From Minisyncoccia bacterium (lineage in GTDB: Bacteria; Patescibacteriota; Minisyncoccia; Phycocordibacterales; PALSA-1337): a stretch of DNA of 64,000 nt. A model generated the notes under the pieces. It ran no database searches and had not been told where the DNA came from. It saw only the letters and a list, made by a program, of their open reading frames with translations. The position numbers and the translations under genes were made by a program. This document shows, piece by piece, positions 24,661-56,608 of the stretch (within the stretch, counting starts at the first letter, position 1; the number at the start of each line of letters is the position of its first letter). The stretch lies in contig JBEKVT010000001.1 of NCBI GenBank assembly GCA_049997795.1, forward strand, positions 312,241-376,240, written 5' to 3'.

Positions 24661-24903
24661 ATGATTAAAGGGAAGTCATCGTCGGTTCCCGCCAGTAGCG
24701 GGAAGTCCATTCAAGCCGCACCGAGCGTCTCTGAAGGCTCTAGCGGTGTACCAAATACCGCCGGTCCCAAAGATGATGATGAATACGTGCCTCTCGATGA
24801 GGTACAAGCTCTCCAGAGCTTGGGCAGAGACCGCCGGGGATTCCTCCGTGCCGATCTCAGCCGTGCAGTCTTCATCTCACCGCGTTTCCGTGCCGGAGCT
24901 TGA
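24661..24903 (+). CDS. questionable small ORF (80 aa from MIKGKSS), low-complexity Ser/Gly-rich
   Basis: Only ORF in the 580-bp gap 24455-25033; no motif; may be non-coding regulatory DNA instead. Confidence 0.15.
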   Translation: MIKGKSSSVPASSGKSIQAAPSVSEGSSGVPNTAGPKDDDEYVPLDEVQALQSLGRDRRGFLRADLSRAVFISPRFRAGA

Positions 24904-25003
24904 AAAACTTCTCTGAACCTCGAACGGGCGATTCCAAGGAGGAAATCGCTCAAGACCGTCTAGTCCAGACCCCCGTCCAGCCAAGGAGGGGGTTTGTCTT
25001 TTA

Positions 25004-25012
25004 TGCTATAAT
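25004..25012 (+). promoter_or_regulatory. extended -10 box TGCTATAAT 21 nt upstream of the TraD-like gene
   Basis: Same 9-mer as upstream of radC and the 433-aa ORF; no SD between it and ATG 25034. Confidence 0.4.
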
Positions 25013-25033
25013 CTCAAAAACCGCCCTCTTTCT

Positions 25034-37417: not shown

Positions 37418-39129
37418 AGGCGCTCGTCCTACAACTGAAGCTGCATTATCTGGCCATCGTCCTCGCGGTTTTGCTCGGTCTCGCGAGCTCTCTGCCGCAG
37501 ATCCTTTCGGCCCGGGCGGTGCCGGGCTTCCAGGGGATATACCACGGAGTCGTCGATGATCAGGTCTATTACGAGGCCCGCACCAAGGATGTCCTGGACG
37601 GCCACGCGTTCCTCTCCAACCCTTACATATACGAGTATAAAAGCGGCCCGCCGATGCAGGTCTGGCTGCCGGACTATCTTCGCGCCCTGCTCCCCCTGGC
37701 GTCGGGCCTCTCGATATGGCGGAGCACGTTCATATACGACTTCTTCTTCCCGGCTCTCTTGTTCATCCTATGTTACGGCATAGTCTTCCTGCTTACGAGC
37801 TCCAGGCTCACCGGCCTCTTGGCTGCCTCCGTCCTAAACGGGGGATTCTTCGTGGCCGAATTCATACGCTCGCCGAGCCCGCAGTTCAATTTCGTCTTCT
37901 GGCTGGCAACTCTGCTTTTCCTCCTGCTCTTCATGAAAGGTGGCAAGAAACGCTACGCGGTCCTTGCCGCGGTGTCCCTGGGTTTTTTGTTCAATCTGTA
38001 TCCTTATTACTGGACTTTTTACATTGTCGCGCTCACGGTATTCCTTTTCATAAAGTTCGTCATGCGGCAGAGGCAAGCCATTTGGACCTATGTTAGCGCC
38101 GCTGTCGGCGGGTTCATCATAGGCATCCCATATTTCATCTCCCTCATCCAATCGAGCCGATTGCCCTGGAATGCCGAATCGCTGGCCCGGCTCGGCCTCA
38201 TCCCGACCCATTTTCCGTCGGGATCATCCATCGTCGCGATCGGTCTCCTGACGCTTGTCTTCCTCACTATCCTGCACAGGAAAGGGCTGATCGGGACAGA
38301 TGATACGAGCCTCCTTCTCTTAGCCGGCGTCGCGGCGGCGATGATCGTTGTCAATCAGCATCTCGTCACCGGCAAGAACCTGGAATTTTCCAGCCACTAC
38401 TTCATGGAGAGCGTCTACTGGTGCGCTTTTGCCGTCTGCTACGGGTTAACACGTCTCCGCCATCTGACCCTTGTCTCGCGATACAAAAAAGCGATCGCTG
38501 CTGCGGCGATCATCGCAGTTGTCATTGTAGTAATCCGCGGCATGACGGGTTTCGTCAATGCGCAGGTGACTTACACTGCCGATGAGGTCTACGCCCAGAA
38601 TTATGCTCCGGTCTTCGCTTGGCTTAACGCCCACACCCAGAAAGACGACGTAGTGTTCGCCGATGAAGATATGAGCGACCTCATCCCGGTCTATACGGCC
38701 GACAACGTCTTCTACGCCCAATCCGCCGAGCTGTTCCTCATGCCGGACATGGAAGTCGAGACGCGCTTCATCATCGAGAATTTTTGGGACAAGATCGACG
38801 CTCCGTTCCTCGTCACGCACGAGCGGGCCGTCTGGGGCACCTATTACGTGAATATAGACGGCCACTATCGGAGCGAGAATGGCGTGCGCAAACTGCTAGG
38901 CCTGCCTCCGATCGCCTACCAGCGCATTCCCGCCCAAAAGATCAATGAGGCCCTGGCCCTATCGGCGGCTCTGCATCAAAAGAGCTTCGCGGACGATCTC
39001 AAGCCCTTCAGGGTCGATTATCTCGTCTGGGACCGCACAAAGGAGCCTGACTGGCCAGTCGCTCGATTTGATTTCTTGAAGCCGGTCTTCTCGGCGGGGA
39101 ATATAAGCGTATATAAGATTCTACGATAG
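37414..39129 (+). CDS. large polytopic membrane protein, possible GT-C-fold glycosyltransferase or polymerase
   Basis: 571 aa, ~11 predicted TM helices plus a C-terminal soluble domain; no specific motif recognised. Confidence 0.3.
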   Translation: MKALVLQLKLHYLAIVLAVLLGLASSLPQILSARAVPGFQGIYHGVVDDQVYYEARTKDVLDGHAFLSNPYIYEYKSGPPMQVWLPDYLRALLPLASGLSIWRSTFIYDFFFPALLFILCYGIVFLLTSSRLTGLLAASVLNGGFFVAEFIRSPSPQFNFVFWLATLLFLLLFMKGGKKRYAVLAAVSLGFLFNLYPYYWTFYIVALTVFLFIKFVMRQRQAIWTYVSAAVGGFIIGIPYFISLIQSSRLPWNAESLARLGLIPTHFPSGSSIVAIGLLTLVFLTILHRKGLIGTDDTSLLLLAGVAAAMIVVNQHLVTGKNLEFSSHYFMESVYWCAFAVCYGLTRLRHLTLVSRYKKAIAAAAIIAVVIVVIRGMTGFVNAQVTYTADEVYAQNYAPVFAWLNAHTQKDDVVFADEDMSDLIPVYTADNVFYAQSAELFLMPDMEVETRFIIENFWDKIDAPFLVTHERAVWGTYYVNIDGHYRSENGVRKLLGLPPIAYQRIPAQKINEALALSAALHQKSFADDLKPFRVDYLVWDRTKEPDWPVARFDFLKPVFSAGNISVYKILR

Positions 39130-39854: not shown

Positions 39855-40581
39855 GATGAGGTTTATTTGTCTCTACCAATGAATATAAACGGTCGCTGAT
39901 TTTCTTCAGTTCGGAGAGGTCCAAGTCATTCTTCGGCCCGGCATCCTTTTTGCGCTCCGCGATTATGAAAGCTTGGCGATTGAGCGACCGTGACGACTGC
40001 GTGACGTACTCCGTTCTGCTCAAGAGCCAGGCCAAGAGACGGAAGGGCCGCGAACCGGCCACCGGATGCGAGCCGAGATAGCCGCGCTCGTCCATGAAGA
40101 TATTCTCGTAAAATCGGCTCACCGGATTGCGGTAATAGACGACCTTGACGGAGCTGAAATGCACCCGAGCCGCGGAAAGACAGCCGGAAAGCCCGTCGTC
40201 GATCGGGACTTCGAACAATAGCCGGCCCTTGGGCGCGGTGATGCGGCAGAGCTTGTCCACCGTCCTCACCCTGGCCGCGACGGGCAGGCAATAGAGCGTA
40301 TTGGTAGAGGCGATGACGTCTATCGAATCCGATGGCAGACCGTAGAGATTGTTGAGATCGGCGACAAGTCCCAAGGTCCGCTCGTCAGGATATCTTTTAA
40401 GGCCGGTCTCTACCCTCTGTTTGTCTATATCCAAGCCGATGTACGTCCCGGTCTTGAACATGGGGCGGTTCTTGAAGGTGGCCGAACCGGCGTCGAGCCC
40501 GACGCCCGTCTTTGTCTTCCCGAGCTCTTTCTCGAGCCTGTCGAACAGGAATGATTTCGACGGCCTGACCATGAAGTTCAT
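39844..40581 (-). CDS. class I SAM-dependent methyltransferase
   Basis: GLDAGSATF motif I, IDVIASTNTLYCL. The 3' ~100 nt of the gene lie in the AT-rich patch. Confidence 0.5.
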   Translation of the reverse strand: MNFMVRPSKSFLFDRLEKELGKTKTGVGLDAGSATFKNRPMFKTGTYIGLDIDKQRVETGLKRYPDERTLGLVADLNNLYGLPSDSIDVIASTNTLYCLPVAARVRTVDKLCRITAPKGRLLFEVPIDDGLSGCLSAARVHFSSVKVVYYRNPVSRFYENIFMDERGYLGSHPVAGSRPFRLLAWLLSRTEYVTQSSRSLNRQAFIIAERKKDAGPKNDLDLSELKKISDRLYSLVETNKPHHEK

Positions 40582-41714
40582 AGCGGTTGTGTCGGTTTAC
40601 TCGCCTTGTAAGCTTCGAGCAGGATCCGGACGATCCTTTCTGCCGCGTGCCCGTCGCCGTACGGCTCGCCGGAAGGAAGCGGCTTTGCCAGGATCGACTT
40701 CACGCCGGCGAGCACGCTCTCCGGCTCGAGCCCGGCTAGGATATTCGTCCCGAGCTCGACCGTCTCCGGCCGCTCGGTATTCTCGCGCATGGTCACGCAA
40801 GGCACTCCGAGGATGCAGGCCTCTTCCTGGATGCCGCCGGAATCCGTCAAGATAAGGGCCGCCTGGGACTCGAGCTGCAAGAAGTCGAAATACCCGAGCG
40901 GGGCGACCAGCTTTATCTCCTTGGGGATGGTATGCACCCAATTCTCGATGTGCTTCCAGGTTCGGGGATGGACAGGGTATACGACCGGCATCTTCATATA
41001 GTGCGAAGCCAGGATGAGGCTCTTGAATATCTTCTTGCGGGTCTCCTTGGTGTCGACTTTCTCAGCGCGATGCGCCGTGGCTAGGATGTACTTATTCTTT
41101 TCCACACCCATCCTAGTGAAGATGTCCGAAGCCGTCCTGCCCGAGAGCGGAAGGCTGTGGTTCACGGCGTCGACCACGGTATTGCCGGTCAGATGGATCT
41201 TCCCGGCCGGGATATTCTCCGCCAAGAGATTGGCGCGGGCATGTTCCGACGGCACGAATAGATAATCGGATATGGAATCGGCGATGATGCGATTCACTTC
41301 CTCGGGCATGGAAAGGTCATTGCTGCGCAGCCCCGCTTCGATGTGGCCGATCGGGATGCCGAGCTTAGCGGCCGACAAGACGCCGGCCAGGACCGTGTAG
41401 GTGTCGCCCTGCACCAGGACCGCGTCGGGCTTTTCTTTCTTCAGGATCTCTTGGATGCCGAAAACCATCGCGCTCATCTGCTTCCGGAATTCCTGCCCGC
41501 CGCTATGCAGGTTGTACTGCGGATAGGGGATGCCGAGATCCCCGAATATCTTCTTGTCCATTTCGGGGCTGTAATGCTGGCCGGAATGCAGGATGAAATA
41601 GTCGCAGCCCTCCTTGTCGCAGGCGCGGATCAAGGGCGACATCTTGATGATCTCGGGGCGAGTGCCCAGGATGATGGCGATCTTCGGCCCTTTCTTTTTC
41701 TCTGCAGGTTTCAT
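40578..41714 (-). CDS. wecB: UDP-N-acetylglucosamine 2-epimerase
   Basis: 378 aa; IILGTRPEIIKMSPL, HIEAGLRS, GNTVVDA family segments. Hydrolysing versus non-hydrolysing cannot be told from sequence by eye. Confidence 0.8.
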   Translation of the reverse strand: MKPAEKKKGPKIAIILGTRPEIIKMSPLIRACDKEGCDYFILHSGQHYSPEMDKKIFGDLGIPYPQYNLHSGGQEFRKQMSAMVFGIQEILKKEKPDAVLVQGDTYTVLAGVLSAAKLGIPIGHIEAGLRSNDLSMPEEVNRIIADSISDYLFVPSEHARANLLAENIPAGKIHLTGNTVVDAVNHSLPLSGRTASDIFTRMGVEKNKYILATAHRAEKVDTKETRKKIFKSLILASHYMKMPVVYPVHPRTWKHIENWVHTIPKEIKLVAPLGYFDFLQLESQAALILTDSGGIQEEACILGVPCVTMRENTERPETVELGTNILAGLEPESVLAGVKSILAKPLPSGEPYGDGHAAERIVRILLEAYKASKPTQPL

Positions 41715-41717
41715 GGT

Positions 41718-42908
41718 CTATAGTTCTTTGAATATGCCCAAAAGCTTGGCTGTCGTATTTCTGACGTGGAACTGCTCCAGGAATGCTGTATCGATCTTTC
41801 GGGATGTCTTGCCATTAATCAAATCCTTCAAATATGCGGCAGCTTCGGCGACCTCGTCATAACCGAAAGATCTTTCGCCTAGCCGGTCCAGGAATCCCGA
41901 GACTGTGCTGCCATGCGGAGTGATGCCGACCACGGGCTTGCCGCTTCCAGCGTAGTCTATCACCTTCGAAGGCAGGAACGGGCTTGTGCCGAAATTCGCA
42001 TCGATCGTCACCAGACAGTCGGAGCTTTTCATGAGGCGCAGGCTCTCCCGGAAGGGAACAGTCGAGATCATCTCCGTTCGGTCTTTGAGGCCATACTGTT
42101 CGAGCAGCGACTCGATCTTCTCTTGGGTATAGCCGGCATAAGGATTGGCGCCGCCGACCAAGCGGATCTTCAGCTTCGAAGCGAGAGCGGCATCGTCCGA
42201 GATCGCTTTCTTCAGGATCTTGAAAAGGATCTCCGGATTGCGTTCCTTATAGAAGACGCCGATGTAGCTTATGATGAAATCGCTATCAGTTCTCCTCGCG
42301 TCGGCCGGATAATCCTTCGGGTCGTAGCAATGGGGGATGACCCGGCATTTTTCCTTATAAGCGGCCGGGTATTTCTTCATGACCATGTCCCGGAGCTGCT
42401 CGCTCACGAACACGATGCGGTCGGCCGCCTCGACGACGCCCGTTTCCTGACGCAAAACGTCGTCCGCGGCTCTCTTCGAGAACGGCTTATATCCGCTGTC
42501 GTACCAGGGATCGCTGAAATTCGCTACGAATCTGACGCCGAAGCGCTTCTTCACCCCGGCGCCTATCACGTTGCTGAATTGGGGATTTGCGAAGGAGAAG
42601 ACTAGCCCGATCTGGTGTTCCTTGATGATCGGTCCGAAAAAATCCATAAGTCGGTCGAGATATTTGCGGTCGCGCGAGCGCCGGAGTGCCGGCACCCTGT
42701 CGAAGACCCGGTTATGTTTCCTTTGGGGTATGCGGTAGCGTGGCAGATCGATGTCCCAATCCTCGCCGCCGTAGCTCACTATGACGGGCTTCACGCCCTG
42801 TCGCACCCATTCCGGGACCATCTTACCGATCAGGATGGCCTGCGGCCTGATCTCCGGCGGAGTGCGGAGGCTCAAACAAAGCACGTTAATATCTTTATTT
42901 GGCATCAA
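41718..42908 (-). CDS. glycosyltransferase family 4
   Basis: GT-B; VIDYAGSGKPVVGITPHGSTVSGF motif. Confidence 0.6.
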   Translation of the reverse strand: MMPNKDINVLCLSLRTPPEIRPQAILIGKMVPEWVRQGVKPVIVSYGGEDWDIDLPRYRIPQRKHNRVFDRVPALRRSRDRKYLDRLMDFFGPIIKEHQIGLVFSFANPQFSNVIGAGVKKRFGVRFVANFSDPWYDSGYKPFSKRAADDVLRQETGVVEAADRIVFVSEQLRDMVMKKYPAAYKEKCRVIPHCYDPKDYPADARRTDSDFIISYIGVFYKERNPEILFKILKKAISDDAALASKLKIRLVGGANPYAGYTQEKIESLLEQYGLKDRTEMISTVPFRESLRLMKSSDCLVTIDANFGTSPFLPSKVIDYAGSGKPVVGITPHGSTVSGFLDRLGERSFGYDEVAEAAAYLKDLINGKTSRKIDTAFLEQFHVRNTTAKLLGIFKEL

Positions 42909-42914
42909 ATGTTC

Positions 42915-43463
42915 CTAGCGTTTCGGTCTGTGTGCCCTCGGAGAGAAGACGACCCCTTGCAATTCCAAGGCGCCGACGCCAAGCCGCGTGCACTTCGCGC
43001 GTACCGACTCGACCAGGCGTTCGAACTCTCTCGAATCCTTCTTGACGTCGAGGTACAAATCTTCCTTATCGAGCATGATATATCGCGCTCCGATCTTCTT
43101 GATGATGGCCTCGAGCTCTTGTACGCCTTTCCGCGTCTCGATCTTCGGGACCAGGCCTATGCGATCAGGGAGCTGGATGCGGATGGCGTGGATCGCAGCG
43201 GGATCCTCGACGTTCGAGACGGCGAAATGCTTCACATTCTTGAACTTGCGGGCGGTCTTGATGGCGTCCGAGAGCTTGGTGACCGGCCTGGGAGGCTTGG
43301 TCCGGCCTTGGGGGTAATCGAGATAGACGTCATGGGTAAGGCTTCCAAGCAGATTCAAGAGGTCTTTTTTGCTGTCGAGCCAGGCGATATTGACGCGCAC
43401 GACCACGTCCTTGGGGATCTTGATGTGGGTCGTGACGAGCAGATGATTAGAGGCGATGATCAT
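42915..43463 (-). CDS. HpcH/HpaI-aldolase or pyruvate-kinase-barrel-like protein
   Basis: LVPKIETRKGVQELEAII...YIMLDKEDLYLDV resembles the KIE..G..N..EI...DGIM.ARGDLG PEP/pyruvate-binding barrel motif. Start set to MIIASNHLL. Confidence 0.3.
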   Translation of the reverse strand: MIIASNHLLVTTHIKIPKDVVVRVNIAWLDSKKDLLNLLGSLTHDVYLDYPQGRTKPPRPVTKLSDAIKTARKFKNVKHFAVSNVEDPAAIHAIRIQLPDRIGLVPKIETRKGVQELEAIIKKIGARYIMLDKEDLYLDVKKDSREFERLVESVRAKCTRLGVGALELQGVVFSPRAHRPKR

Positions 43464-43476
43464 GTTTTGGTTTGCG

Positions 43477-43929
43477 TCACTCGCCCTTGATCTTCTTGAT
43501 GATGCCGCTCGTCGATATGCCGTCATGATAGCCCAAGACCACGATCTTGCAGTCGATCTCTTTCGCGGTCTTTGCGCCGGGGATGTTCCCGCTCTCGTTC
43601 CAGCCGGCCCCAGGGCCTTTGGCCAGGATATGGGGCTTCAGCCTGATGAGGTTCTCGTCCGGCGCCAGGTCATGTTGCGGCACGACCTCGTCGACCGACC
43701 TGCAGTGCTCGAGGACCAGTTTCCGGTGCTCAAAAGGGATGACCGGCTCGCGCTTGTAGGCAGATACCACGTCGTCAGTGAAAAGGCCGACCACCAATCT
43801 GTCTCCTAGCGCCCGGGCCTCGTTCAGGAGCTCGACGTGGCCGCTATGGAAAAGGTCGAAGGCGCCGTATGTGTAGACGATCGTTTGCCGAGCCTTCTTT
43901 TTCGCCTTTCTTGCCTTTGTTTTTTTCAT
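43477..43929 (-). CDS. cytidylyltransferase, glycerol-3-phosphate cytidylyltransferase (TagD)-like
   Basis: YGAFDLFHSGHVELL HxGH nucleotidyltransferase motif; 150 aa, the size of TagD. Confidence 0.65.
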   Translation of the reverse strand: MKKTKARKAKKKARQTIVYTYGAFDLFHSGHVELLNEARALGDRLVVGLFTDDVVSAYKREPVIPFEHRKLVLEHCRSVDEVVPQHDLAPDENLIRLKPHILAKGPGAGWNESGNIPGAKTAKEIDCKIVVLGYHDGISTSGIIKKIKGE

Positions 43930-43943
43930 GATGGATATTCAGA

Positions 43944-45191
43944 TTAGCTTTTTTCGCACCCTCTGGCAATCTGTCCGCGCATCTCATGCAATTTCGCCAC
44001 GGCGGCCGCAGTCGCCTTGCCCCGGTTATACAGCAATCTGTCGTCGATCGACGGCGCATTATCCGGCCGCGCCTCGCGAGGTACGGTCAAACTGCGGGCG
44101 ATGGCCGCGTAGAACTCTTTTGGCGTCTTCACCAGAGAGCCGTAGATCGGCCGGAAATCTCCCAGCGAGTTCATCTCATGATCCTCGAAGAACCTCGGTA
44201 TATCCAGGAAGATCATCGGCTTGCGCAGGAAATAGAACTCGATCCATATGGTGCTGATATCGGTCACGGCAAGGTCGCTTCCCATGATGAATTCCGGCGA
44301 GTCGACCTCGTAGGCGTTGTATATCCTGTGGCCAGCGATGTCGCTATTGTCGAAGAAGGATCTCCAATCGACCCCGCCGCTGCCTTTCTTGCTGGTCGGA
44401 TCTATATATGATCCGGGATGGATCTTCACGATCAAATTGGCCTTGAAGCGCTCGGGGATCTCAAGGATCCGGTCGAGCCAAGTGAAGACGCTGGTGTTCT
44501 GGTTCCAGGTGGCTGCGTAGAAGACCGTAGGCAGGGAAGGATCGAGCCCGAGCCCTTTTATGAAGGCCTTGCGATCGATGCCCCTGTCGCGCAGCTCGAA
44601 AAGAATGTCATATTTCGGACAGCCGATCTCGTGGAGCTTCGGGATCTTGGCGATGCGGTGGTCGGCGCAGAACGTCAGCATGTCTTTTTTGAACGCTTCG
44701 CCAGTGAGGAAGACGTCGGTCATCTTGTCGATCGCCGGCGAGAAGACGTCATATTTCGTTTTGGAAGTCACCGTGTGGGGGAAGTGGATCTTATAATGAG
44801 CCCGCTTCGGCACTTTGATGTCGTATGACAGCGTGGCGTTCAGATAAAAATCTACCCAAGGGAAATGATCGAAGAATCGGGAATCGACCAGATCCGGCCG
44901 GCCTTCCTTCCAGGATGATCCGATGAGTTTCCTGAGGTTTCCCATGAGCTTGTCGTGAGTGATGACTACGACGCAAGCCCCGTCTCCGATGAGCTCGGCC
45001 AGCACCGACTGCAGATAGAAGAATTCGTTCGTCGTGGTTATCTCCGCGATGACGGTCATAAAGCCGCGCCGCTTCGCCCGGACGATATCCACGCGCGCCC
45101 GGCACAGCCAGAAGATCCCCACCAGGGCGCTTCCCAGCCGGACAAGCTTGTTCTTCAGTTTATGCAGCACGGCTTTCATGTCCTTCCTCAT
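43944..45191 (-). CDS. CDP-glycerol glycerophosphotransferase family protein (TagB/TagF-like)
   Basis: 415 aa; Glyphos_transf-type C-terminal region (YNAYEVDSPEFIMGSDLAVTDISTIWIEFYFLRKPMIF). Confidence 0.6.
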   Translation of the reverse strand: MRKDMKAVLHKLKNKLVRLGSALVGIFWLCRARVDIVRAKRRGFMTVIAEITTTNEFFYLQSVLAELIGDGACVVVITHDKLMGNLRKLIGSSWKEGRPDLVDSRFFDHFPWVDFYLNATLSYDIKVPKRAHYKIHFPHTVTSKTKYDVFSPAIDKMTDVFLTGEAFKKDMLTFCADHRIAKIPKLHEIGCPKYDILFELRDRGIDRKAFIKGLGLDPSLPTVFYAATWNQNTSVFTWLDRILEIPERFKANLIVKIHPGSYIDPTSKKGSGGVDWRSFFDNSDIAGHRIYNAYEVDSPEFIMGSDLAVTDISTIWIEFYFLRKPMIFLDIPRFFEDHEMNSLGDFRPIYGSLVKTPKEFYAAIARSLTVPREARPDNAPSIDDRLLYNRGKATAAAVAKLHEMRGQIARGCEKS

Positions 45192-45877
45192 GGGATCAGC
45201 CTGAAAAGGGCCCGCTTCTTATCCTTCTTGTATGAATCGACTTCGGCGATCTTCTCGACCACGGAAAATCCGCATGACTTAAGGAAGCTCTCTATCCATT
45301 CATGGGGCCGATCTCCCATATCCGGCAGACGCTTCGCCCACGAAAGCTCGCTTTCATCCGACTGGCCCATCTCGAAGATCATCTCCTTCTTAGTCCTCTT
45401 TCGCAGCAGGCTCATGAATCCTCGCGCATATTCCTCCCCGCGGGCGGACATGATGTGGTGCAAGACCGACATGCAGATGACGAGGTCTGAAGCGGGCAGG
45501 CGCGGGATCATCTCCGTATCGGCAGCGCCGAAGATGAATCTGGCATTCCGTATCTTTTCTTTTATGATCTGATCTTCCGCCACAGCAAACCTGCGCGCGT
45601 CCATCTCGACGCCTATCGCGGTGCATGAGCATTCCCGAGCGGCTTGGATCACATAAAAGCCCTCCGCGGAGCCGATATCGAGAACGGACGAGCCGCCGCT
45701 CGTTTCGATCTCCTTGCGGATCACTTCCCAACGGTCAAAGCAGTTGCGCTCGTTGCCGCCGACGAATCTGCCTCGGATCAAGACTGGCTGGTAGCGCGGA
45801 TATGAATAGAGCGCAGACCTGAGGCATATCTTCTGCCTGATCGTCTGGAACAATGTTCTTTTCTCCTCCTGCTGCAT
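45188..45877 (-). CDS. class I SAM-dependent methyltransferase
   Basis: VLDIGSAEGFYV motif I, LVICMSVLHHI; start set to MQQEEK (45877), 2 nt from the upstream stop. Confidence 0.55.
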   Translation of the reverse strand: MQQEEKRTLFQTIRQKICLRSALYSYPRYQPVLIRGRFVGGNERNCFDRWEVIRKEIETSGGSSVLDIGSAEGFYVIQAARECSCTAIGVEMDARRFAVAEDQIIKEKIRNARFIFGAADTEMIPRLPASDLVICMSVLHHIMSARGEEYARGFMSLLRKRTKKEMIFEMGQSDESELSWAKRLPDMGDRPHEWIESFLKSCGFSVVEKIAEVDSYKKDKKRALFRLIP

Positions 45878-45878: not shown

Positions 45879-48086
45879 TTATTTTTCTTTATGCGGGATC
45901 GAGCTCGACTCGATGAGCACGTCGGCAAAATATTTCACCGCCCAATTCAAGGCTTGGTATTGACCATACTCGCCGGATATCGGGGAGCTTCCCCAGACGG
46001 CGCCGCTTAAAACCGGATCAGAGCCATTGTATTGGCATGATTTCAAGAAGTCCTTGAGCTTCCTCGCGGCTTCCATGTATGCGCTATCGTGCGTGCCGAC
46101 GTACGCCTTCATGCATGTCACTGCGATCTGCGCGATGCCCGTCAAGCACGCCCAATCGACGGTGCCGTCCCATTTCTCGTCGAATCTTCCCGGTATCTTG
46201 CCGGTCGCGCCCATCCGATCGATGATCTGATCGAGCGCCTTCCGCGCGGCGTCCGTGAACCTCCGTTCCTTGAGATGGATGCCGATATCCCACAGGCCGT
46301 CGATCGTATAAGCGATCGTATGAAGGAGCGCGTCGGGCCGTTGTTCGAAGTCTGCGTCGCGGAACCAGCCGTTCGGGTCTTGCATCGACAGGGTGTGTTC
46401 CGCCGATCTCCGCGCCGCCTCGGTCAAGTCCTTATCTTTCGCCAGCGCGCCCAATTCGGCGAGAGGCGCCAGGGCATACACGTTATATGTAGTGACCCTC
46501 TGATCGACTGACGAGGCATTATCAGAATTCCACCAGCCTTGTTTGCCAAGATCATCGGCGTATTCATGCTCCAATATCCAGGCAGCCGATCTTTTCGCCG
46601 CCTTCAAGTACTTCTCCTTTTTGGTCAGCTGCCACATAGCGATCATGCCCCGGATGACCTGGCCGGTATCGAAGACGGCCGGAGCCGGCGGAACGGAGAT
46701 GTTCCCTCCCTGTACGGCCCCGCCTGGCAGCATGACGTTGATCTCCCACTCTGCCATGAGCCGCGCCCGCCGGATGAGGTCCGCGTCGCCCAAGAGCCGT
46801 CCGGCCTTGATCATGGTCGGGATGATGTAGCCGGTCGTCTCAGGGTAAGACGGCTGCCAGCCGAAGCGATTAGACTTGCTTCCCGGAATGAGATCGAAGC
46901 CTCGGCTCACTCCTCCGTCCGGCGTGGCATCCTGCGCCCGTTTGAGCCAATCGAGACATCTCATCAGATGGTCGCGGTCGCTCCCGACCAAGGCGTGATC
47001 GTATCGGGCGAGTTCCTTCTCGAACCGCGCCAGAGTTCTTTTATTCGCTTGCCATTTTAATATCTTGCCGGCCCTTTTAAAAACTGATTTAAGAGCGGAG
47101 TCCTTTTTCGTCGGCCCCTGTATGCTGCCGATCCAGGAGATCTTTTCCATGGTCTTCGAGAATACCGGCCACTCTGATACCGCCGATTCGACGGCCAGGG
47201 CCAGATCATAGATCTTAGTCGCCAGCCAGTCTGGGGCCCAGCCGCGGAACTTCATCGGCTCGAAGAGGTAGAAGAAGAATCCCCAACCTGCCCCCGCGTA
47301 TGATATCGGTTTGACGAAACAGTCCGCCGCCCATTTATTTATCTCTCGATATGAATAGTAACGATCGTATGTGAGGCCCCAGGGCTTCAGGCGGTCGATC
47401 GCTGGCAGCATCCTGAATCGTTTGTATAGCTCCTTCGGGTTCAGCTTATTATAAAGTTCTAATGCGACGAAGCCGCTCGGTTTGGTGATGCGGACCATCT
47501 CGGCGAAGGCCGCTTCCGGCCGTCTGATGTGCTGGAAGACCCTGATGCTCACGGAGAGATCGGCCACCGCGCCTTTGATGGGCATATCCTCGAGCTGGCA
47601 ACAGACGAGCCATGCTTCCGGCATCCTTTCCTTGGCCGCCTTGAGGAGATGCAGGGAAGAGTCGGTACCTATCTTTCTTCCGATCTTCGGATAATATGAC
47701 AGAAGCCTGCCGTTGCCGCAGCCGCAGTCGATGACGGTCCGGCCGCTCAAGCCGGCATTCGCCGACGCGAGCAGCCGGTCTATCGCCCTCATCTCGGAGA
47801 CGTGCGTATATAACCCCCATGTTGAGCCCTGTTTCTTCAGGTAGCTGTCGTATTTCTTGGCGTAATTCTTCGCCTGCTCTTCCTGATCCCAATGCCTTTT
47901 GTGCATGTCCGGAGAATGGGCCGCGTCCGGGAAGATGATAGGGATCCCATGGTCGACAGGGTAGACGTCGCCGCATTCGGCGCACACGAGAGAATCCGCC
48001 GAGTCCTGCCTCAAATCGCCGCGGCAATGCCGTTTCGGACAGCAAAGGATATCCATGAACTCCTGGGGAAGCTTGTCGGCGGTCAT
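45879..48086 (-). CDS. three-domain fusion: Trm112-like zinc ribbon + class I SAM methyltransferase + ~450-aa C-terminal alpha-helical domain, possibly (alpha/alpha)6-toroid-like
   Basis: CCPKRHC...CAECG ribbon; VIDCGCGNGRLL motif I and FVALELYN; long Trp/Ala-rich helical C-terminal region with no motif I can name. Confidence 0.5.
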   Translation of the reverse strand: MTADKLPQEFMDILCCPKRHCRGDLRQDSADSLVCAECGDVYPVDHGIPIIFPDAAHSPDMHKRHWDQEEQAKNYAKKYDSYLKKQGSTWGLYTHVSEMRAIDRLLASANAGLSGRTVIDCGCGNGRLLSYYPKIGRKIGTDSSLHLLKAAKERMPEAWLVCCQLEDMPIKGAVADLSVSIRVFQHIRRPEAAFAEMVRITKPSGFVALELYNKLNPKELYKRFRMLPAIDRLKPWGLTYDRYYSYREINKWAADCFVKPISYAGAGWGFFFYLFEPMKFRGWAPDWLATKIYDLALAVESAVSEWPVFSKTMEKISWIGSIQGPTKKDSALKSVFKRAGKILKWQANKRTLARFEKELARYDHALVGSDRDHLMRCLDWLKRAQDATPDGGVSRGFDLIPGSKSNRFGWQPSYPETTGYIIPTMIKAGRLLGDADLIRRARLMAEWEINVMLPGGAVQGGNISVPPAPAVFDTGQVIRGMIAMWQLTKKEKYLKAAKRSAAWILEHEYADDLGKQGWWNSDNASSVDQRVTTYNVYALAPLAELGALAKDKDLTEAARRSAEHTLSMQDPNGWFRDADFEQRPDALLHTIAYTIDGLWDIGIHLKERRFTDAARKALDQIIDRMGATGKIPGRFDEKWDGTVDWACLTGIAQIAVTCMKAYVGTHDSAYMEAARKLKDFLKSCQYNGSDPVLSGAVWGSSPISGEYGQYQALNWAVKYFADVLIESSSIPHKEK

Positions 48087-49618
48087 GACCTTTTTGCGCC
48101 AGACGCCTTTTTACCGAGCGCCGACTCGATCTCTTTCTTATATATGCTCCATATGGGGCTTGTGTCGCCGCCCCTCTCCCAGAGGGAGAAATAATTCACG
48201 TCGAAACCGGTGTCATAAGCGGCCGCCACGTAGTTTTCCAGGCGCCGTTCGTATTGAGGGGTATGAAGATCGACCTTAAGCACCTCTTTTATCTTATGGA
48301 CCAGGGTGGTCATGTCGGTGTGTTTGCTCACGTTCGGCAACTTAAGCGTCGTCCCAAGATCGCCAAGCTGGATCGCGGGTATTCGTAGGAACGCAGCCTC
48401 GACGAGAACGCTGCTGTTCTGGCTGATCACCAGGCTCGCTCTTTTCAGGATGTCGTATGACGGGATGCGGTAATCTATGAGCTTGATGTTCACTGTCCTG
48501 GCCAGCTTCTCGAGATACGAGGGCGGACGGTATCCGAGCATGGCCGGGTGGTCCTTGACGACCAGGGTGTAATCGTCTGGCAGGGACATGGCCGCCTGTC
48601 GGGCCGTCTCGATCTGGTTGCTGAAGAACGGGGAAGCCACGTCTATATTGGCCTCCGGCTGGAATTGCAAAGGCAGGTACACGAACTTGCTGATTTTCTC
48701 GAAAGGATGGTATGGAAAAGCCTTAGCCCTCCCCGCGTAACGGTCATGGCAGTAATGGTCCCGAAGGATTATGCGCGGCGGCCGGTAGTCGATGGTGATG
48801 CCGGTGCTGTCCAATCGATTCTCGGATGGTCTTATGTACCAGCGCAAGATGTGGTAATAAGGCGAACCAAGATGGCGGATCTTCTGCCACAAGGTCTTCG
48901 GGATCTCTTTTTGCGTGTATGTCGGAGCGATGAACCTCTCCCTGAACTCTTTGATGTATGCCCGCGCCTTGTCGAGATTCTCGCTCTCCGCCTCGCCCCG
49001 GTTCAATAGATCGACGCGGTCATGGAACGGCCCGGAACCGTCGGTGTGATCATAAGAGAATATGTAATTGCCGCTGACCTTCGAATCGGTCACGCCGAAC
49101 ATCGGCACGCCGCGCTTCTTCCCGTACAGGCTGAACATGATGTGGGGCAAGGCTACGAAATTCGGCGCGATGATGAGATCGGGCTTGAACTCGTCGAACA
49201 CGCGCCGTACGCATTTATAGAGCGCCATGACGTAGTCGATGATGCCCTCGTCGGAGACGTTCTGCCGGAAGGCGTAGTAATACTTGTCCTTATAGCTCCG
49301 GACGTGGTTGCGCAGGGACATGACGATCGGCCAGATGGAGTCGACGCCGATCTCCTTATTGATCAGAGCAAGAGGGAAGACGTCGCCTTTCAAGTAGTCT
49401 TTCGGCCGGCCCATGATCTCGTCGTTGTTGACGACGAGATCATAGCGCACCTCCCTTTGGGAAGCTATGAACTGGTGAGTCGTCCGTTTGAGGGTGAACG
49501 CGGCCAGGATGGCGCCCTCTTCCTGCAGGGACTTTGCCAGCGGGTGGCCGACATTCACGGCCCAGCTCCTCTGTTGGAATATGAGTATGCGTTTTCCGCG
49601 TATGGGTGAATGAGACAT
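48083..49618 (-). CDS. capsule polysaccharide biosynthesis protein family (KpsS/KpsC-like glycosyltransferase)
   Basis: 511 aa; VVKDHPAMLG ... ISQNSSVLVEAAFLRIPAIQLG resembles the Capsule_synth HP...S..E..G.P motif. Confidence 0.45.
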   Translation of the reverse strand: MSHSPIRGKRILIFQQRSWAVNVGHPLAKSLQEEGAILAAFTLKRTTHQFIASQREVRYDLVVNNDEIMGRPKDYLKGDVFPLALINKEIGVDSIWPIVMSLRNHVRSYKDKYYYAFRQNVSDEGIIDYVMALYKCVRRVFDEFKPDLIIAPNFVALPHIMFSLYGKKRGVPMFGVTDSKVSGNYIFSYDHTDGSGPFHDRVDLLNRGEAESENLDKARAYIKEFRERFIAPTYTQKEIPKTLWQKIRHLGSPYYHILRWYIRPSENRLDSTGITIDYRPPRIILRDHYCHDRYAGRAKAFPYHPFEKISKFVYLPLQFQPEANIDVASPFFSNQIETARQAAMSLPDDYTLVVKDHPAMLGYRPPSYLEKLARTVNIKLIDYRIPSYDILKRASLVISQNSSVLVEAAFLRIPAIQLGDLGTTLKLPNVSKHTDMTTLVHKIKEVLKVDLHTPQYERRLENYVAAAYDTGFDVNYFSLWERGGDTSPIWSIYKKEIESALGKKASGAKRS

Positions 49619-49678: not shown

Positions 49679-49706
49679 TTGACACCTTATGACGCCTTGC
49701 TATACT
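49679..49706 (+). promoter_or_regulatory. sigma70-type promoter TTGACA -16- (TGC)TATACT
   Basis: -35 TTGACA 49679-49684, extended -10 TGCTATACT 49698-49706, 42 nt upstream of the HTH gene. Confidence 0.55.
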
Positions 49707-49748: not shown

Positions 49749-50000
49749 ATGACCAATAAAGAGATCCAACCCCACACCGTGTACACTACCGGCGAAACCG
49801 AGGCCTTGCTGAAGATAAGCAGGAGCACCATGAAGCGCCTGCTCAAAAAAGGCCTCATCCGCGCCAACAAAGTCGGCCGCCAATACCGCATCCTCGGTTT
49901 GGAGATCCTGCGCATGGTCTCTCCGGAGACGGAACAGAAGGCAGTGAAGTCATACCTCAAGGTCAAGGAGAAGGCGGTCAGCAAGATAAATAGATGGTGA
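49749..50000 (+). CDS. excisionase-family helix-turn-helix DNA-binding protein
   Basis: 83 aa; YTTGETEALLKISRSTMKRLLKKGLIRANKVGRQYRI matches HTH_17/excisionase-type DNA-binding domains. Confidence 0.6.
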   Translation: MTNKEIQPHTVYTTGETEALLKISRSTMKRLLKKGLIRANKVGRQYRILGLEILRMVSPETEQKAVKSYLKVKEKAVSKINRW

Positions 50001-51787
50001 TCAAGGCGTTCATCAGAAAGACGACCGATGCTCTGCGGTTGCTCGACCGCGCCTTCAGGCAATACAGGAAGAAGATCGCCGTCCTGGCTTTTCTGGGCTT
50101 CTTGTCCGGCCTGTTCGAAGCGGTCGGCGTCAACGCTCTGGTGCCTCTTTTTTCGTTCTTGACCGGCAGCAATGACTTCGGCGACGACCTCGTCTCGAAG
50201 GCCATCAAGAGCCTGTTTGCCATCGTCCACGTCACGTTCTCGATAAAATATCTGCTTGTCTTCATCTGCATCCTATTCATTCTGAAGGCCCTGGCGCTCA
50301 TGTGGGCGAGCTACGTGAAGATCCAGATCATCGGCAACTATTCGAAATCCGCCCGCACCGCGCTCTTCCGGAAGACTTTGGCGGCCAGCTGGCCGTATCT
50401 CTTGAAGCAGAAGCTGGGCCACCTGGAGACGGTCATCTTGACCAACGTGCAATACGGCGAGCTCATGCTCGACCACCTGAGCAGCATCATCACCATCATG
50501 AGCATGCTCTTCATCTATACCGCCGTCGCCGTCGACATGTCGCCCATAACTAGCATCCTGGCCGTCGCTCTCGGTGCCGTCCTGTTCTTCATCTTCAAGC
50601 CGCTCATCACCCGGACCCGGCTGGCCTCGAACGATATCGAGGCCATCAACCGCCAGACTTCCCACCACGTCAACGAGAACGTCATGGGCATGAAGACCGT
50701 CAAGGCCATGGGCGTCTATCAGGCGGTCGTGGCCCGGGGCGAATCGTTCTTCGAGAGCCTGCGCCGGCTCAAGGTCAGGATCACTGTCCTCAAGATGGTC
50801 CCGGAGAACCTGATGCCGTCGATAGGCATAGTCTTCGTCATGATCGTCCTGGCCATTTCCTACAAGCTGCCGCATTTCAACCTGGCGGTCCTGGCGGCGG
50901 TGGTCTACCTGATCCAGCAGATCTTCCTCTATATACAGCAATTGCAGAGGCATGTGCAGATGGTCTATGAATGCGCGCCATACGTCAGGGCCATCACGGA
51001 ATTCGACGACGGAGCGGAGAGAGAGCTCGAACGCGACCGAGGCACGGCGGATTTCTCTCTCCGGTCGGAGTTCAAATTCTCAGACGTCTCGTTCGCTTAT
51101 GAGAATCGCAAGTCCGTCCTTGAGCACGTCGATTTCAGGATACGGCAGGGCGAGGTCGTGGGCCTCATAGGCCCGTCCGGCGCCGGCAAGACCACCATCG
51201 TCGACATATTGCTCCGCCTCTTCGATCCGTCGAAGGGCACCATCTCAGTCGACGGAGTCGACATCGCCTCCATCAAGCTCAGCGCCTGGCGCGAACACGT
51301 AGGTTATGTCTCGCAAGACGTCTTCCTGATGAACGACACGGTCGAGAATAATATACGTTTCTACAACCAGTCGTTATCGAAACAAGACCTGGTCAAGGCG
51401 GCCAAGATGGCCAACATATACGACGTCATCGAAAATCTGCCGCAAGGCTTCGACACGGTGATCGGCGAGCGCGGCGTCCTCTTGTCAGCCGGGCAACGCC
51501 AGCGCATCATCATCGCCCGCGTCCTGGCCAGGAAGCCGGAGCTCCTCATCCTTGACGAGGCCACCAGCGCTCTCGATAACCAGTCCGAGATGGAGATCCA
51601 GAAGGTCATCGACGGCCTCAAGGGCAAGCTGACCGTGTTCGTCATCGCTCACCGGTTGTCGACCGTGGTCAATGCCGACCAGCTCCTTGTCCTCGAAAAG
51701 GGCAGGATAGTCGAGCGCGGCAAGCCGCAGGACCTTCTGGCCGATAAGAGCTCCTATTTCCACAGGTTATATAATCTCAAGCAATAA
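49994..51787 (+). CDS. ABC transporter, fused permease/ATP-binding exporter (MsbA/type I exporter-like)
   Basis: 6-TM N-domain; Walker A GPSGAGKTT, signature LSAGQRQRIIIARVL, Walker B ILDEATSALD. Confidence 0.85.
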   Translation: MVIKAFIRKTTDALRLLDRAFRQYRKKIAVLAFLGFLSGLFEAVGVNALVPLFSFLTGSNDFGDDLVSKAIKSLFAIVHVTFSIKYLLVFICILFILKALALMWASYVKIQIIGNYSKSARTALFRKTLAASWPYLLKQKLGHLETVILTNVQYGELMLDHLSSIITIMSMLFIYTAVAVDMSPITSILAVALGAVLFFIFKPLITRTRLASNDIEAINRQTSHHVNENVMGMKTVKAMGVYQAVVARGESFFESLRRLKVRITVLKMVPENLMPSIGIVFVMIVLAISYKLPHFNLAVLAAVVYLIQQIFLYIQQLQRHVQMVYECAPYVRAITEFDDGAERELERDRGTADFSLRSEFKFSDVSFAYENRKSVLEHVDFRIRQGEVVGLIGPSGAGKTTIVDILLRLFDPSKGTISVDGVDIASIKLSAWREHVGYVSQDVFLMNDTVENNIRFYNQSLSKQDLVKAAKMANIYDVIENLPQGFDTVIGERGVLLSAGQRQRIIIARVLARKPELLILDEATSALDNQSEMEIQKVIDGLKGKLTVFVIAHRLSTVVNADQLLVLEKGRIVERGKPQDLLADKSSYFHRLYNLKQ

Positions 51788-56065: not shown

Positions 56066-56608
56066 ATGAAACAACCATTCTTAGTCGGCGAGCACGTCTA
56101 TCTCCGCGGCATCGAAGCCTCGGATGTCAATGAGGATTACCAGAGCTGGTTCAACGACGCCGAAGTCTGCCAATATAATTCGCATCACCGCTTCCCGAAC
56201 TATCGCCAAGACATGGAGGAATATTACAAGACGGTCATCAAGTCCAAGCATCATCTGATCCTGGCCATCATCGACAAGTCGAATGACAAGCACGTCGGCA
56301 ACATAAGCCTCCAGGAGATCGATCCCATCGACCGCTCGGCCGAATACGCCATCGTGATCGGCGACAAGAGCGTCTGGGGCAAGGGGCTGGGGAAAGAAGC
56401 GAGCAGGCTCATCCTCGCTCACGGCTTCGACGCCCTCGATCTGCACCGCATATACTGCGGCACGTCCTCGGAGAACGTCGGCATGCAGAAGCTCGCCGAC
56501 AACCTCGGCTTCAAGAAGGAAGGAGTCTCTAGGGAAGCCATGTTCAAGAACGGCGCCTTCCGCGACATCATCCATTACGGCATGCTAAAAGATGACTTCA
56601 AGAGATAA
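56066..56608 (+). CDS. GNAT-family N-acetyltransferase (PseH-like by context)
   Basis: 180 aa; GNAT motif A region VWGKGLGKEA. Confidence 0.6.
   Translation: MKQPFLVGEHVYLRGIEASDVNEDYQSWFNDAEVCQYNSHHRFPNYRQDMEEYYKTVIKSKHHLILAIIDKSNDKHVGNISLQEIDPIDRSAEYAIVIGDKSVWGKGLGKEASRLILAHGFDALDLHRIYCGTSSENVGMQKLADNLGFKKEGVSREAMFKNGAFRDIIHYGMLKDDFKR

What the first reader, a model, noticed from the sequence alone, without database searches (positions are those of the whole stretch)
45879..48086. 735-aa three-domain fusion: Trm112-like Zn ribbon + SAM methyltransferase + large alpha-helical (possibly alpha/alpha-toroid) domain
The N-terminus has CCPKRHC...CAECG, the Trm112-type ribbon that normally acts as a separate activator subunit of methyltransferases. 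Here it is fused to a class I methyltransferase (VIDCGCGNGRLL).

The methyltransferase is followed by ~450 residues of Trp/Ala-rich helical sequence. This is reminiscent of (alpha/alpha)6 toroids such as N-acylglucosamine 2-epimerase, terpene cyclases and LanC.

I have not seen this architecture described. Embedded in the glycan locus, it could couple sugar epimerisation or binding with methylation.
Basis: inference. Interest (0 to 1): 0.55.

Follow-up and report, generated by a model that had tools for sequence, protein, structure and literature searches.

The report
Methyltransferase fused to uncharacterised sugar-type helical barrel
This is a real, conserved three-part protein in a surface-sugar gene cluster of a tiny 'candidate phyla' bacterium: a zinc ribbon and a methyl-adding enzyme joined to a helical barrel from a widespread, unnamed, unstudied family that nature also fuses to many other sugar-building enzymes.

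Summary

The specific 'epimerase' reading is untested, and AGE, GH88, LanC and terpene-cyclase membership all fail at sequence level. The Trm112-MTase fusion itself is already noted in the literature.

The new element is the barrel. It belongs to an unannotated family (487 representative clusters at E <= 1e-30) that is cytoplasmic and typical of exopolysaccharide loci, usually next to a GT4. It is also fused to GT4, GT2, sulfotransferase, N-acetyltransferase, FemAB-like, B12/radical-SAM and Wzx flippase domains, always keeping the same invariant residues.

Best reading: a cytoplasmic glycan-tailoring methyltransferase tethered to a conserved glycan-recognising or glycan-processing module. Substrate and barrel chemistry remain unknown. 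Interest is moderate; I class it as a new variant of a known kind.

The parts
45879..48086 (-). Whole 735-aa ORF (stop codon 45879-45881): Trm112-like ribbon + class I SAM methyltransferase + (alpha/alpha)6 barrel
   Evidence: ORF list and translation. Pfam. Full-length homologues.
47925..48065 (-). Residues 8-54: Trm112-type Zn ribbon (C16, C21, C35, C38)
   Evidence: Pfam Trm112p 23.4 bits against cutoff 22. NCBIfam Trm112_arch 31 bits, below its cutoff. The four Cys are invariant in 47 fusion proteins. The model shows one short helix and four strands. Sequence matches to solved bacterial Trm112-like proteins 2kpi, 2pk7 and 2hf1.
47112..47909 (-). Residues 60-325: class I SAM-dependent methyltransferase. 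Pfam core is 120-208, with a conserved insertion/lid at about 217-312.
   Evidence: Methyltransf_11 60 bits. D120, G122, G124, N125, R127 and D142 are invariant. Foldseek E 3e-12 to CmoM/SmtA 4htf, TT1324, Hvo_0019 and RebM.
46998..47096 (-). Residues 331-363: long basic helix joining the MTase to the barrel. The stand-alone barrel proteins also have it at their N-terminus.
   Evidence: DSSP of both models (H331-343; H2-34). Stand-alone homologues start at this helix.
45900..46979 (-). Residues 370-729: (alpha/alpha)6 barrel of an unannotated family. Motifs: WLKRAQDATPDGGVSRG, GWQPSYPETTGYIIPT, FDTGQV, QxxNGWF, LLHTIxYTIDG, WxCLTGxAQ, NWAxKYFxD.
48083..49618 (-). Upstream 511-aa gene with an ATGA overlap onto the fusion start. 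GT-B-like, a candidate (non)ulosonic-acid transferase.
   Evidence: Weak Capsule_synth hit (E 0.0028) and BFO_1060-family GT hit (E 1e-4). BFO_1060 is the putative Pse/Leg transferase of T. forsythia (PMC5420450). Orthologues at 53-62% identity lie within about 1.1 kb of the barrel gene in eight of nine non-redundant clade-A loci; the ninth is a 3.9-kb contig cut at the barrel gene.
45188..45877 (-). Downstream separate class I methyltransferase. Its ATG is 1 nt after the fusion stop.
   Evidence: Pfam Methyltransf_25/31. Junction sequence.
41718..42908 (-). GT4 glycosyltransferase in the same operon. Homologues of it are the most frequent neighbours of the barrel family.
   Evidence: Pfam. 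A GT4 lies within 3 kb of the barrel in 28 of 87 loci. A GT4-like cluster is present in 40 of 85 loci. Barrel-GT4 fusion proteins P0139 and P0257 exist.
40578..41714 (-). WecB-type non-hydrolysing UDP-GlcNAc 2-epimerase, which travels with the GT4 and the barrel
   Evidence: TIGR00236 wecB 387 bits against cutoff 210. Detected in 8 of 9 non-redundant clade-A loci, missing only where the contig ends after the GT4 (L012), and in 22 of 87 loci overall.

Best explanation
The protein is a soluble, cytoplasmic, two-module glycan-tailoring enzyme.

Module 1 (residues 1-330) is an active class I SAM methyltransferase. Its N-terminal Trm112-type zinc ribbon is a built-in version of the Trm112 'activator' subunit and is likely to stabilise the MTase in cis.

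Module 2 (residues 331-735) is an (alpha/alpha)6 barrel from a widespread, unnamed family that is an autonomous component of polysaccharide biosynthesis loci. Its invariant residues lie in the long loops and at the starts of the helices that follow them. In related enzymes that face forms the sugar-binding funnel.

I infer that the barrel binds, and possibly chemically processes, a feature of the nascent lipid-linked or soluble glycan made by the neighbouring GT4/WecB and nonulosonate enzymes. Tethering it to the MTase would then direct methylation to that same intermediate before export by the adjacent ABC transporter.

Shown: the domain identities, the folds, the conservation, the split and fused forms, and the genomic associations. 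Inferred: the cis activation by the ribbon, the location of the pocket, the glycan substrate, and whether the barrel is catalytic.
For: Domains and folds.

The SAM motif and the four Cys are invariant in 47 fusions.

The fusion is conserved across phyla. It also exists as adjacent Trm112-MTase and barrel genes in both gene orders: L007 upstream with a 4-nt overlap, L057 and L076 directly downstream. This is a Rosetta-stone argument for a functional unit.

The window protein and the stand-alone barrels checked (P0091, P0113) have no hydrophobic segment. One relative is fused to the C-terminus of a Wzx flippase.

The barrel family is an EPS-locus component. Its neighbours are GT4-like (40 of 85 loci), other GT4 (31), AsnB-like (22), FemAB-like (20), Wzx (20), WecB (17) and polysaccharide deacetylase (15).

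The barrel is fused to GT4, GT2, sulfotransferase, Antibiotic_NAT, FemAB-like and B12/radical-SAM domains, and the same Y414/E416/Y420/Q476/H589/Y593/C647/Q653 residues are kept throughout.

The window operon is tightly packed (ATGA overlap upstream, 1-nt spacer downstream). It lies in a locus of at least 36 kb with PseB, PseC-like, NeuB, CMP-sugar synthetases, WecB, GTs and an ABC exporter.

Precedent: the intracellular (alpha/alpha)6 MmpH works with the GT4 ManT and SAM MTases in methylmannose polysaccharide synthesis (PMC9883506).
Against: - No substrate is identified. The nearest MTase structures are generic.
- The barrel matches no characterised family at sequence level, so catalysis versus binding is open.
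- In two Magnetococcales contigs and one unnamed metagenome contig the fusion is not inside a glycan cluster, and the split pair in L007 is not either. A glycan role is therefore not proven for all members.
- Only about 1% of the barrel family's clusters carry the MTase, so the coupling is lineage-specific.
The ribbon-MTase contact and the geometry of the pocket are inferred from pTM and topology only.
Confidence: 0.55

Rival explanations
1. The barrel is an enzyme in its own right. It could be a sugar or uronate epimerase/isomerase, or a glycan hydrolase that makes or trims primers as MmpH does. The MTase would then act on its product, so the fusion channels two consecutive steps.
Against: No AGE, GH88, GH105, GH127 or C5-epimerase Pfam model reaches its threshold. 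Only one His and one Cys are invariant, so neither the AGE two-His site nor the LanC/GH127 Zn sites is reproduced. E448 and D722 are replaced in some fusions. An enzyme that makes one specific product fits poorly with fusion to such varied partners as GT2, GT4, sulfotransferase, NAT, rSAM and Wzx.
Confidence: 0.3
2. The barrel is a non-catalytic adaptor. It docks tailoring enzymes, glycosyltransferases and the flippase onto a common ligand, for example the undecaprenyl-diphosphate-sugar head group, or onto the assembly complex.
For: It is fused promiscuously to seven or more unrelated catalytic or transport domains, in both N- and C-terminal positions. It is fused to Wzx. There is sequence-level similarity to QW repeats of polyprenyl-binding terpene cyclases (SQHop_cyclase_C hits).
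Confidence: 0.12
3. The protein has nothing to do with glycans. It would be a Trm112-type RNA or protein methyltransferase, or a small-molecule (terpenoid or lanthipeptide-like) tailoring enzyme, that merely sits in a glycan locus here.
For: Trm112 partners in eukaryotes and archaea modify tRNA, rRNA and release factors (PMC5372719, PMC6144793). Some fusion genes are isolated from glycan genes. There are weak LANC_like and SQHop_cyclase hits. GPP and FPP C-methyltransferases appear among the Foldseek hits.
Against: The gene is tightly packed in an operon with glycan genes. The gene order is conserved in Patescibacteria. The barrel family's neighbours and fusion partners are overwhelmingly polysaccharide enzymes. 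The LanC Zn ligands and a conserved terpene-cyclase DxDD motif are absent.
Confidence: 0.03

Closest known systems
Trm112-methyltransferase holoenzymes, and the Trm112-MTase fusion proteins noted in archaea and bacteria (PMC5372719, PMC6144793)
   Same: An N-terminal Zn-knuckle with a CPx(n)C...CxxC signature precedes a class I SAM MTase. The Trm112-partnered MTase Hvo_0019 (6f5z) is among the top structural matches of the MTase domain. The ribbon and MTase model as one confident unit.
   Different: Known partners modify tRNA, rRNA or release factors. This protein sits in a glycan operon and carries a 400-aa six-hairpin barrel, which those papers do not mention for any Trm112-MTase fusion. NCBIfam Trm112_arch scores far below its cutoff (31 against 77 bits). 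Clade A has a CPxxxC spacing instead of CPxC.
Mycobacterial methylmannose-polysaccharide system: MmpH (alpha/alpha)6 endomannosidase + ManT (GT4) + MeT1/MeT3 SAM methyltransferases (PMC9883506)
   Different: There is no specific sequence relationship. MmpH is not among the top structural hits. The MMP components are separate proteins and their product is an intracellular polymer, whereas this locus encodes an ABC exporter. Whether this barrel has hydrolase activity is untested.
Six-hairpin carbohydrate enzymes: GH88/GH105 unsaturated glucuronyl/rhamnogalacturonyl hydrolases, and the AGE superfamily (N-acylglucosamine 2-epimerase, cellobiose 2-epimerase, YihS)
   Different: Identity is 10-18%. 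The GH88 Pfam model stays below its threshold and no AGE model appears among the hits. The catalytic signatures (two His in AGE, paired Asp in GH88, recalled from memory) are not evident among the invariant residues. The context is biosynthetic and cytoplasmic rather than catabolic.
WbdD-type chain terminators of ABC-transporter-dependent O-antigen synthesis (methyltransferase-kinase with coiled-coil ruler)
   Same: A soluble MTase fused to a non-MTase module in an ABC-exporter-linked glycan locus. A long helix separates the modules.
   Different: There is no kinase domain. The exporter here is a fused TMD-NBD half-transporter, not Wzm/Wzt with a carbohydrate-binding module. No terminal-methyl evidence exists. 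The resemblance is recalled from general knowledge and was not tested.

Membership tests
Trm112p-like Zn ribbon (PF03966) | Pfam model at or above the gathering score | tested here: met
   23.4 bits against cutoff 22, residues 10-46. This is marginal. The split-gene relatives score higher: L007 34.9 bits, L057 26.4 bits.
Trm112p-like Zn ribbon (PF03966) | [C/D]PX[C/D]...CX2C zinc-knuckle signature (PMC5372719) | tested here: met
   C16-P17-x3-C21 ... C35-x2-C38. All four Cys are invariant in 47 fusions. Clade B has the canonical CPxC and clade A has a two-residue insertion.
Trm112p-like Zn ribbon (PF03966) | Small helix plus four-stranded antiparallel sheet that contacts the MTase | tested here: inconclusive
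   The model has H8-13 and strands 24-29, 32-35, 41-45 and 48-50, and pTM is 0.89 for ribbon plus MTase. Coordinates and PAE were not available, so the contact surface could not be inspected.
Class I SAM-dependent methyltransferase (Methyltransf_11) | Pfam model above threshold, plus motif I (GxGxG) and the acidic residue after strand 2 | tested here: met
   60 bits against cutoff 21.2. D120-x-G122-x-G124 and D142 are invariant. Foldseek E about 3e-12 to class I MTases.
Six-hairpin (alpha/alpha)6 barrel superfamily | Twelve helices in six hairpins forming a double barrel, with strong structural match to members | tested here: met
N-acylglucosamine 2-epimerase (AGE) superfamily | Sequence-level family match | tested here: not met
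   No AGE family model among the Pfam or NCBIfam hits at E <= 1. The profile against PDB matches cellobiose 2-epimerase over only about 32 residues.
N-acylglucosamine 2-epimerase (AGE) superfamily | Pair of catalytic histidines (recalled from general knowledge) | tested here: inconclusive
   Only H589 is invariant and H373 is nearly so. No structure-based alignment was available to map them onto the AGE site.
GH88 / GH105 unsaturated uronyl hydrolases | Pfam Glyco_hydro_88 above threshold | tested here: not met
LanC-like (PF05147) | Pfam model above threshold, and the Cys-Cys-His zinc site | tested here: not met
   19.7 bits against cutoff 23.2. Only one invariant Cys (C647) and one invariant His (H589).
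Class II terpene cyclase / prenyltransferase barrels (SQHop_cyclase) | Family-level match beyond QW repeats, and a conserved DxDD motif | tested here: not met
D-glucuronyl C5-epimerase (C5-epim_C) | Pfam model above threshold over the catalytic domain | tested here: not met
   21.2 bits against cutoff 23.3, residues 652-683 only. 4pw2 gives E 0.36 in the profile search. The relative P0147 reaches 47 bits, but over about 50 residues only.
WbdD-like chain terminator | MTase plus kinase plus coiled coil, with Wzm/Wzt exporter carrying a CBM | tested here: not met
   No kinase domain is detected in the protein. The exporter at 49994-51787 shows ABC_membrane and ABC_tran domains in one polypeptide.

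The most novel reading that the evidence does not exclude
The C-terminal barrel defines a new, widespread family of cytoplasmic glycan-assembly modules. It would be either a polymer- or lipid-intermediate-level sugar-modifying enzyme with a new active site (invariant Tyr/Glu/His/Cys/Gln), or a universal 'acceptor-presenting' domain for undecaprenyl-linked intermediates. Evolution would have wired it repeatedly to methyl-, sulfo-, acetyl- and glycosyl-transferases, a radical-SAM enzyme and the Wzx flippase. The Trm112-MTase fusion in this CPR bacterium would be one instance of a general, undescribed organising principle of polysaccharide tailoring.
Probability: 0.3. Interest if true: 0.75.

Novelty: new variant of a known kind. 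Interest (0 to 1): 0.5.

Why it matters
The methyltransferase fusion by itself is a modest curiosity. It does, however, point to an unnamed six-hairpin domain family that is a regular component of bacterial exopolysaccharide and surface-glycan loci. The family has 487 representative clusters at E <= 1e-30 and at least 569 hits among species-representative genomes. It is present in Nitrospira, Gemmatimonadota, Acidobacteriota, Desulfobacterota, floc-forming Betaproteobacteria and CPR bacteria. It has no specific Pfam or NCBIfam model, and I found no paper on it.

Its fusions to many different tailoring enzymes and to the flippase make it a concrete target. Working out what it binds or catalyses would fill a gap in how sugar modifications are coupled to repeat-unit assembly.

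For CPR bacteria, a glycan locus of at least 36 kb with a nonulosonic acid pathway and seven methyltransferases is a large investment for a very small genome. It is a candidate determinant of attachment to host cells.

Tried and rejected
- Frameshift or chimeric ORF. Rejected: the alignment to full-length homologues is continuous and both halves model with confidence.
- Membership of AGE, GH88, GH127, LanC, C5-epimerase, pectate lyase or terpene cyclase families. All sequence matches are sub-threshold or cover a single hairpin. The Pec_lyase hit formally passes its cutoff (25.3 against 22 bits) but spans 57 of 292 profile positions, so it is not membership.
- Periplasmic polymer-trimming hydrolase or lyase (BcsZ/AlgL-like). 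Rejected because there is no signal peptide or TM segment and the barrel is fused to cytoplasmic enzymes.
- Cross-phylum transfer of the locus into a proteobacterium. I suspected this from the 58% GC content. Rejected: the window's PEP synthase places the host in Patescibacteria.
- Link to polyprenyl synthase in L007. That gene sits in an rplU-rpmA-obg neighbourhood and looks like a housekeeping gene.
- Phosphonate pathway in the locus, suggested by the weak HpcH/PK-like 203-aa ORF and a class III aminotransferase. The ORFs between NeuB and the aminotransferase are DUF218 and an unknown, not a phosphonopyruvate decarboxylase. Not pursued.
- Fold search of the MTase module for a substrate clue. 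It returned only generic class I MTases.
- Literature searches for the architecture.
Full report
**1. Observation**

Pfam gives Trm112p (residues 10-46, 23.4 bits, cutoff 22) and Methyltransf_11 (120-208, 60 bits). Between residues 470 and 690 it gives a scatter of weak hits to alpha/alpha-toroid families: Pec_lyase, C5-epim_C, LANC_like, GH88 and GH127. NCBIfam adds only generic MTase hits and a sub-threshold Trm112_arch hit.

The start codon overlaps the stop of the upstream 511-aa gene (ATGA). The next gene's ATG lies 1 nt after the stop. The ORF therefore sits inside a tightly packed operon.

**2. It is a real, conserved protein, not a frameshift fusion**

A search of 5.8 billion proteins returned more than 60 clusters of full-length homologues of 700-770 aa.
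- Clade A, 51-58% identical, comes from Patescibacteria (Falkowbacteria, Kuenenbacteria, Buchananbacteria, Magasanikbacteria).
- Clade B, 35-39% identical, comes from Nitrospira sp. KM1 and Magnetococcales, among others.

They align end to end. The four ribbon cysteines, the SAM motif (D120, G122, G124, N125, R127) and D142 are invariant in 47 fusions. One member, P0047, has a degenerate SAM motif.

**3. Structures**

The C-terminal 406 residues, modelled with 49 stand-alone homologues, give pLDDT 89.3 and pTM 0.90, with 12 core helices in six hairpins.
- Foldseek agrees.

At sequence level the family profile matches solved structures only through repeat-like 'QW' segments (squalene-hopene cyclase, GH76, cellobiose 2-epimerase). 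It is a distinct family with no specific Pfam or NCBIfam model.

The N-terminal 345 residues model as one confident unit (pLDDT 89.1, pTM 0.89): one short helix and four strands for the ribbon, then a class I Rossmann-like MTase with an insertion between the last strands. The nearest solved structures are generic: CmoM/SmtA 4htf, TT1324, the Trm112-partnered Hvo_0019, RebM, and GPP C-MTase. They say nothing about the substrate.

**4. Host and locus**

The window's PEP synthase is 83-86% identical to proteins of 'Patescibacteria group bacterium' MAGs, and an identical copy lies on a 657-kb JGI contig. The host is a CPR bacterium, with an unusual GC content of 55-61%.

The gene lies in a glycan locus of at least 36 kb.
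- On its own strand: a 511-aa GT-B-like protein, the fusion, a separate MTase, a TagF-like glycerophosphotransferase, a cytidylyltransferase, a 203-aa unknown, a GT4, WecB (387 bits against cutoff 210), and two more MTases.
- Divergently: a fused ABC exporter, a FemAB-like protein, a CMP-sugar synthetase, a GFO oxidoreductase, a PseC-like aminotransferase, a GNAT, PseB (436 bits against cutoff 408), NeuB/PseI, and others.
- Further GTs, a deacetylase and three more MTases lie upstream.

The 511-aa neighbour weakly matches Capsule_synth and the BFO_1060 glycosyltransferase family. BFO_1060 is the putative pseudaminic/legionaminic-acid transferase of Tannerella forsythia (PMC5420450).

**5. Comparative context**

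In a Falkowbacteria contig much of the neighbourhood is shared with the window. It has the 507-aa orthologue (58% identity) overlapping the fusion start, a divergent ABC exporter, Pse-type genes, and GT plus Epimerase_2 downstream.

Across the nine non-redundant clade-A loci, the 511-aa protein is detected in eight. The exception is a 3.9-kb contig that is cut at the barrel gene. The GT4 is detected in all nine, and WecB in eight, missing only where the contig ends. NeuB or PseB is detected in eight.

In Nitrospira the fusion sits between Epimerase_2 and a GT4 in a different, Wzy-type EPS locus. In two Magnetococcales contigs and one unnamed metagenome contig it is not inside a glycan cluster.

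**6. The barrel is the general element; the MTase is one of many partners**

A scan of species-representative genomes found at least 569 relatives of the barrel. Most are stand-alone genes of about 400 aa in Gemmatimonadota, Nitrospira, Acidobacteriota, Desulfobacterota, and Beta- and Gammaproteobacteria.

An exhaustive HMMER search of 1.84 billion representatives gave 487 hits at E <= 1e-30. Of the listed representatives, four span the whole 735-aa query, and two shorter proteins (P0077, P0125) also carry MTase-like N-termini.

Unbiased clustering of ORFs in 85 loci shows the barrel's commonest neighbours:

| Neighbour | Loci (of 85) |
|---|---|
| ~450-aa GT4-like protein (often directly downstream) | 40 |
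| other GT4 | 31 |
| AsnB-like amidotransferase | 22 |
| FemAB-like protein | 20 |
| Wzx flippase | 20 |
| WecB | 17 |
| polysaccharide deacetylase | 15 |

Separate Trm112p+Methyltransf_11 genes flank the stand-alone barrel in L007 (upstream, 4-nt overlap), and in L057 and L076 (directly downstream). The fused and split forms therefore occur in both gene orders.

Other relatives fuse the barrel to:
- GT4 (P0139, P0257)
- GT2 (P0197)
- a sulfotransferase (P0148)
- an aminoglycoside-type N-acetyltransferase (P0162, P0243)
- a FemAB-like domain (P0130)
- a B12-binding radical-SAM enzyme (P0122)
- a Wzx flippase (P0167)
- a ~420-aa unannotated family that also occurs as a separate gene in these loci

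In all of these, Y414-P-E416, Y420, F472/T474/Q476, W574, H589/Y593, W639, C647/T649/Q653 and W715 are unchanged. By the model's topology these residues lie in the long loops and at the starts of the helices that follow them. In six-hairpin enzymes that face forms the substrate funnel; this is established knowledge of the fold, and the mapping here is an inference. Neither the window protein nor the stand-alone barrels checked (P0091, P0113) has a hydrophobic segment, so the module is cytoplasmic.

**7. Mechanism**

Best reading (confidence 0.55): a cytoplasmic glycan-tailoring enzyme. An active SAM MTase, stabilised in cis by its Trm112-type ribbon, is tethered to a conserved module that recognises or processes the nascent glycan intermediate. 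Methylation is thereby directed to that intermediate before export.

The rivals differ mainly on the barrel:
- an enzyme in its own right, feeding the MTase (0.30)
- a non-catalytic adaptor for a common ligand such as the lipid-linked head group (0.12)
- a non-glycan role (0.03)

The intracellular MmpH/ManT/MeT system of mycobacteria is a documented precedent for an (alpha/alpha)6 barrel, a GT4 and SAM MTases working together (PMC9883506). There is no specific homology to it.

**8. Comparison with known families, and novelty**

The Trm112-MTase fusion as such is already noted, but with unknown function (PMC5372719, PMC6144793). The fold of the third domain is known. Its family is unannotated, and my searches found no paper on it. 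Database names are generic or inconsistent: 'methyltransferase domain-containing protein', 'YyaL (SSP411 family)', 'beta-L-arabinofuranosidase domain-containing'.

I classify the finding as a new variant of a known kind, a modular glycan-tailoring enzyme. Interest is moderate (0.5). The more interesting lead is the barrel family itself.

Noticed in passing
window 6378-8777 (-), and the whole window: The host is a Patescibacteria (CPR) bacterium. Its PEP synthase is 83-86% identical to Patescibacteria MAG proteins, and an identical copy lies on a 657-kb JGI contig. The GC content of 55-61% is unusually high for this group.
   Followed up: partly
window about 26900-63000: A glycan locus of at least 36 kb in a small-genome organism carries seven SAM-methyltransferase genes (32641, 33982, 36524, 39138, 39844, 45188 and the fusion). 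It also has a Pse-type nonulosonic acid pathway, TagF/TagD-like genes and many GTs. The product is probably a heavily methylated surface polymer.
   Followed up: partly
window 48083-49618 (-): A 511-aa protein with no Pfam family above threshold. It has weak Capsule_synth and BFO_1060-family (putative Pse/Leg transferase) hits and a KDHPA 'HP' motif. Its stop overlaps the fusion's start (ATGA). Orthologues at 53-62% identity lie near the barrel gene in eight of nine clade-A loci. It is a candidate nonulosonate transferase.
   Followed up: partly
window 42915-45191 (-); L010: A TagF-like glycerophosphotransferase, a small cytidylyltransferase and a 203-aa unknown (weak HpcH/pyruvate-kinase-barrel similarity) are conserved together only in the Magasanikbacteria locus L010.
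   Followed up: no
P0122 (887 aa), from the representative search: A B12-binding radical-SAM enzyme is fused to the same barrel. This is a second, mechanistically different SAM-dependent enzyme wired to the module.
   Followed up: no
P0047 (673 aa): A fusion homologue whose SAM-binding motif is degenerate (VIDSCCVDSRLL) and whose middle region is deleted. It is possibly a pseudo-methyltransferase that keeps an intact barrel.
   Followed up: no
L011 and L014: Contigs labelled 'uncultured Gammaproteobacteria' carry clade-A-type genes (47-55% identity, with the same 511-aa, GT4 and WecB neighbours) that are otherwise typical of Patescibacteria. This is either horizontal transfer or mis-binning.
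   Followed up: no
window 30178-31062 (+): A UDP-glucose/GDP-mannose dehydrogenase-like ORF of only 294 aa. Its match starts at profile position 69 of the N-terminal domain, so it may be truncated or have a mis-called start.
   Followed up: no
window 37414-39129 (+), 56592-57515 (+), 60244-60891 (+): Three ORFs in the glycan locus (571, 307 and 215 aa) have no Pfam family. The 307-aa one has a faint 'surface carbohydrate biosynthesis protein' NCBIfam hit.
   Followed up: no
window 23237-26917 (+): Just upstream of the glycan locus lie a DUF4015 putative glycosyl hydrolase and a 627-aa TrwB/VirD4/HerA-like ATPase.
   Followed up: no
window 49679-49706 (+): A near-consensus sigma-70-like promoter match (TTGACA, 16-nt spacer, TATACT, with TG) lies in the divergent intergenic region upstream of the ABC exporter operon. 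The total number of promoter-like sites in the region is no higher than in shuffled sequence.
   Followed up: no
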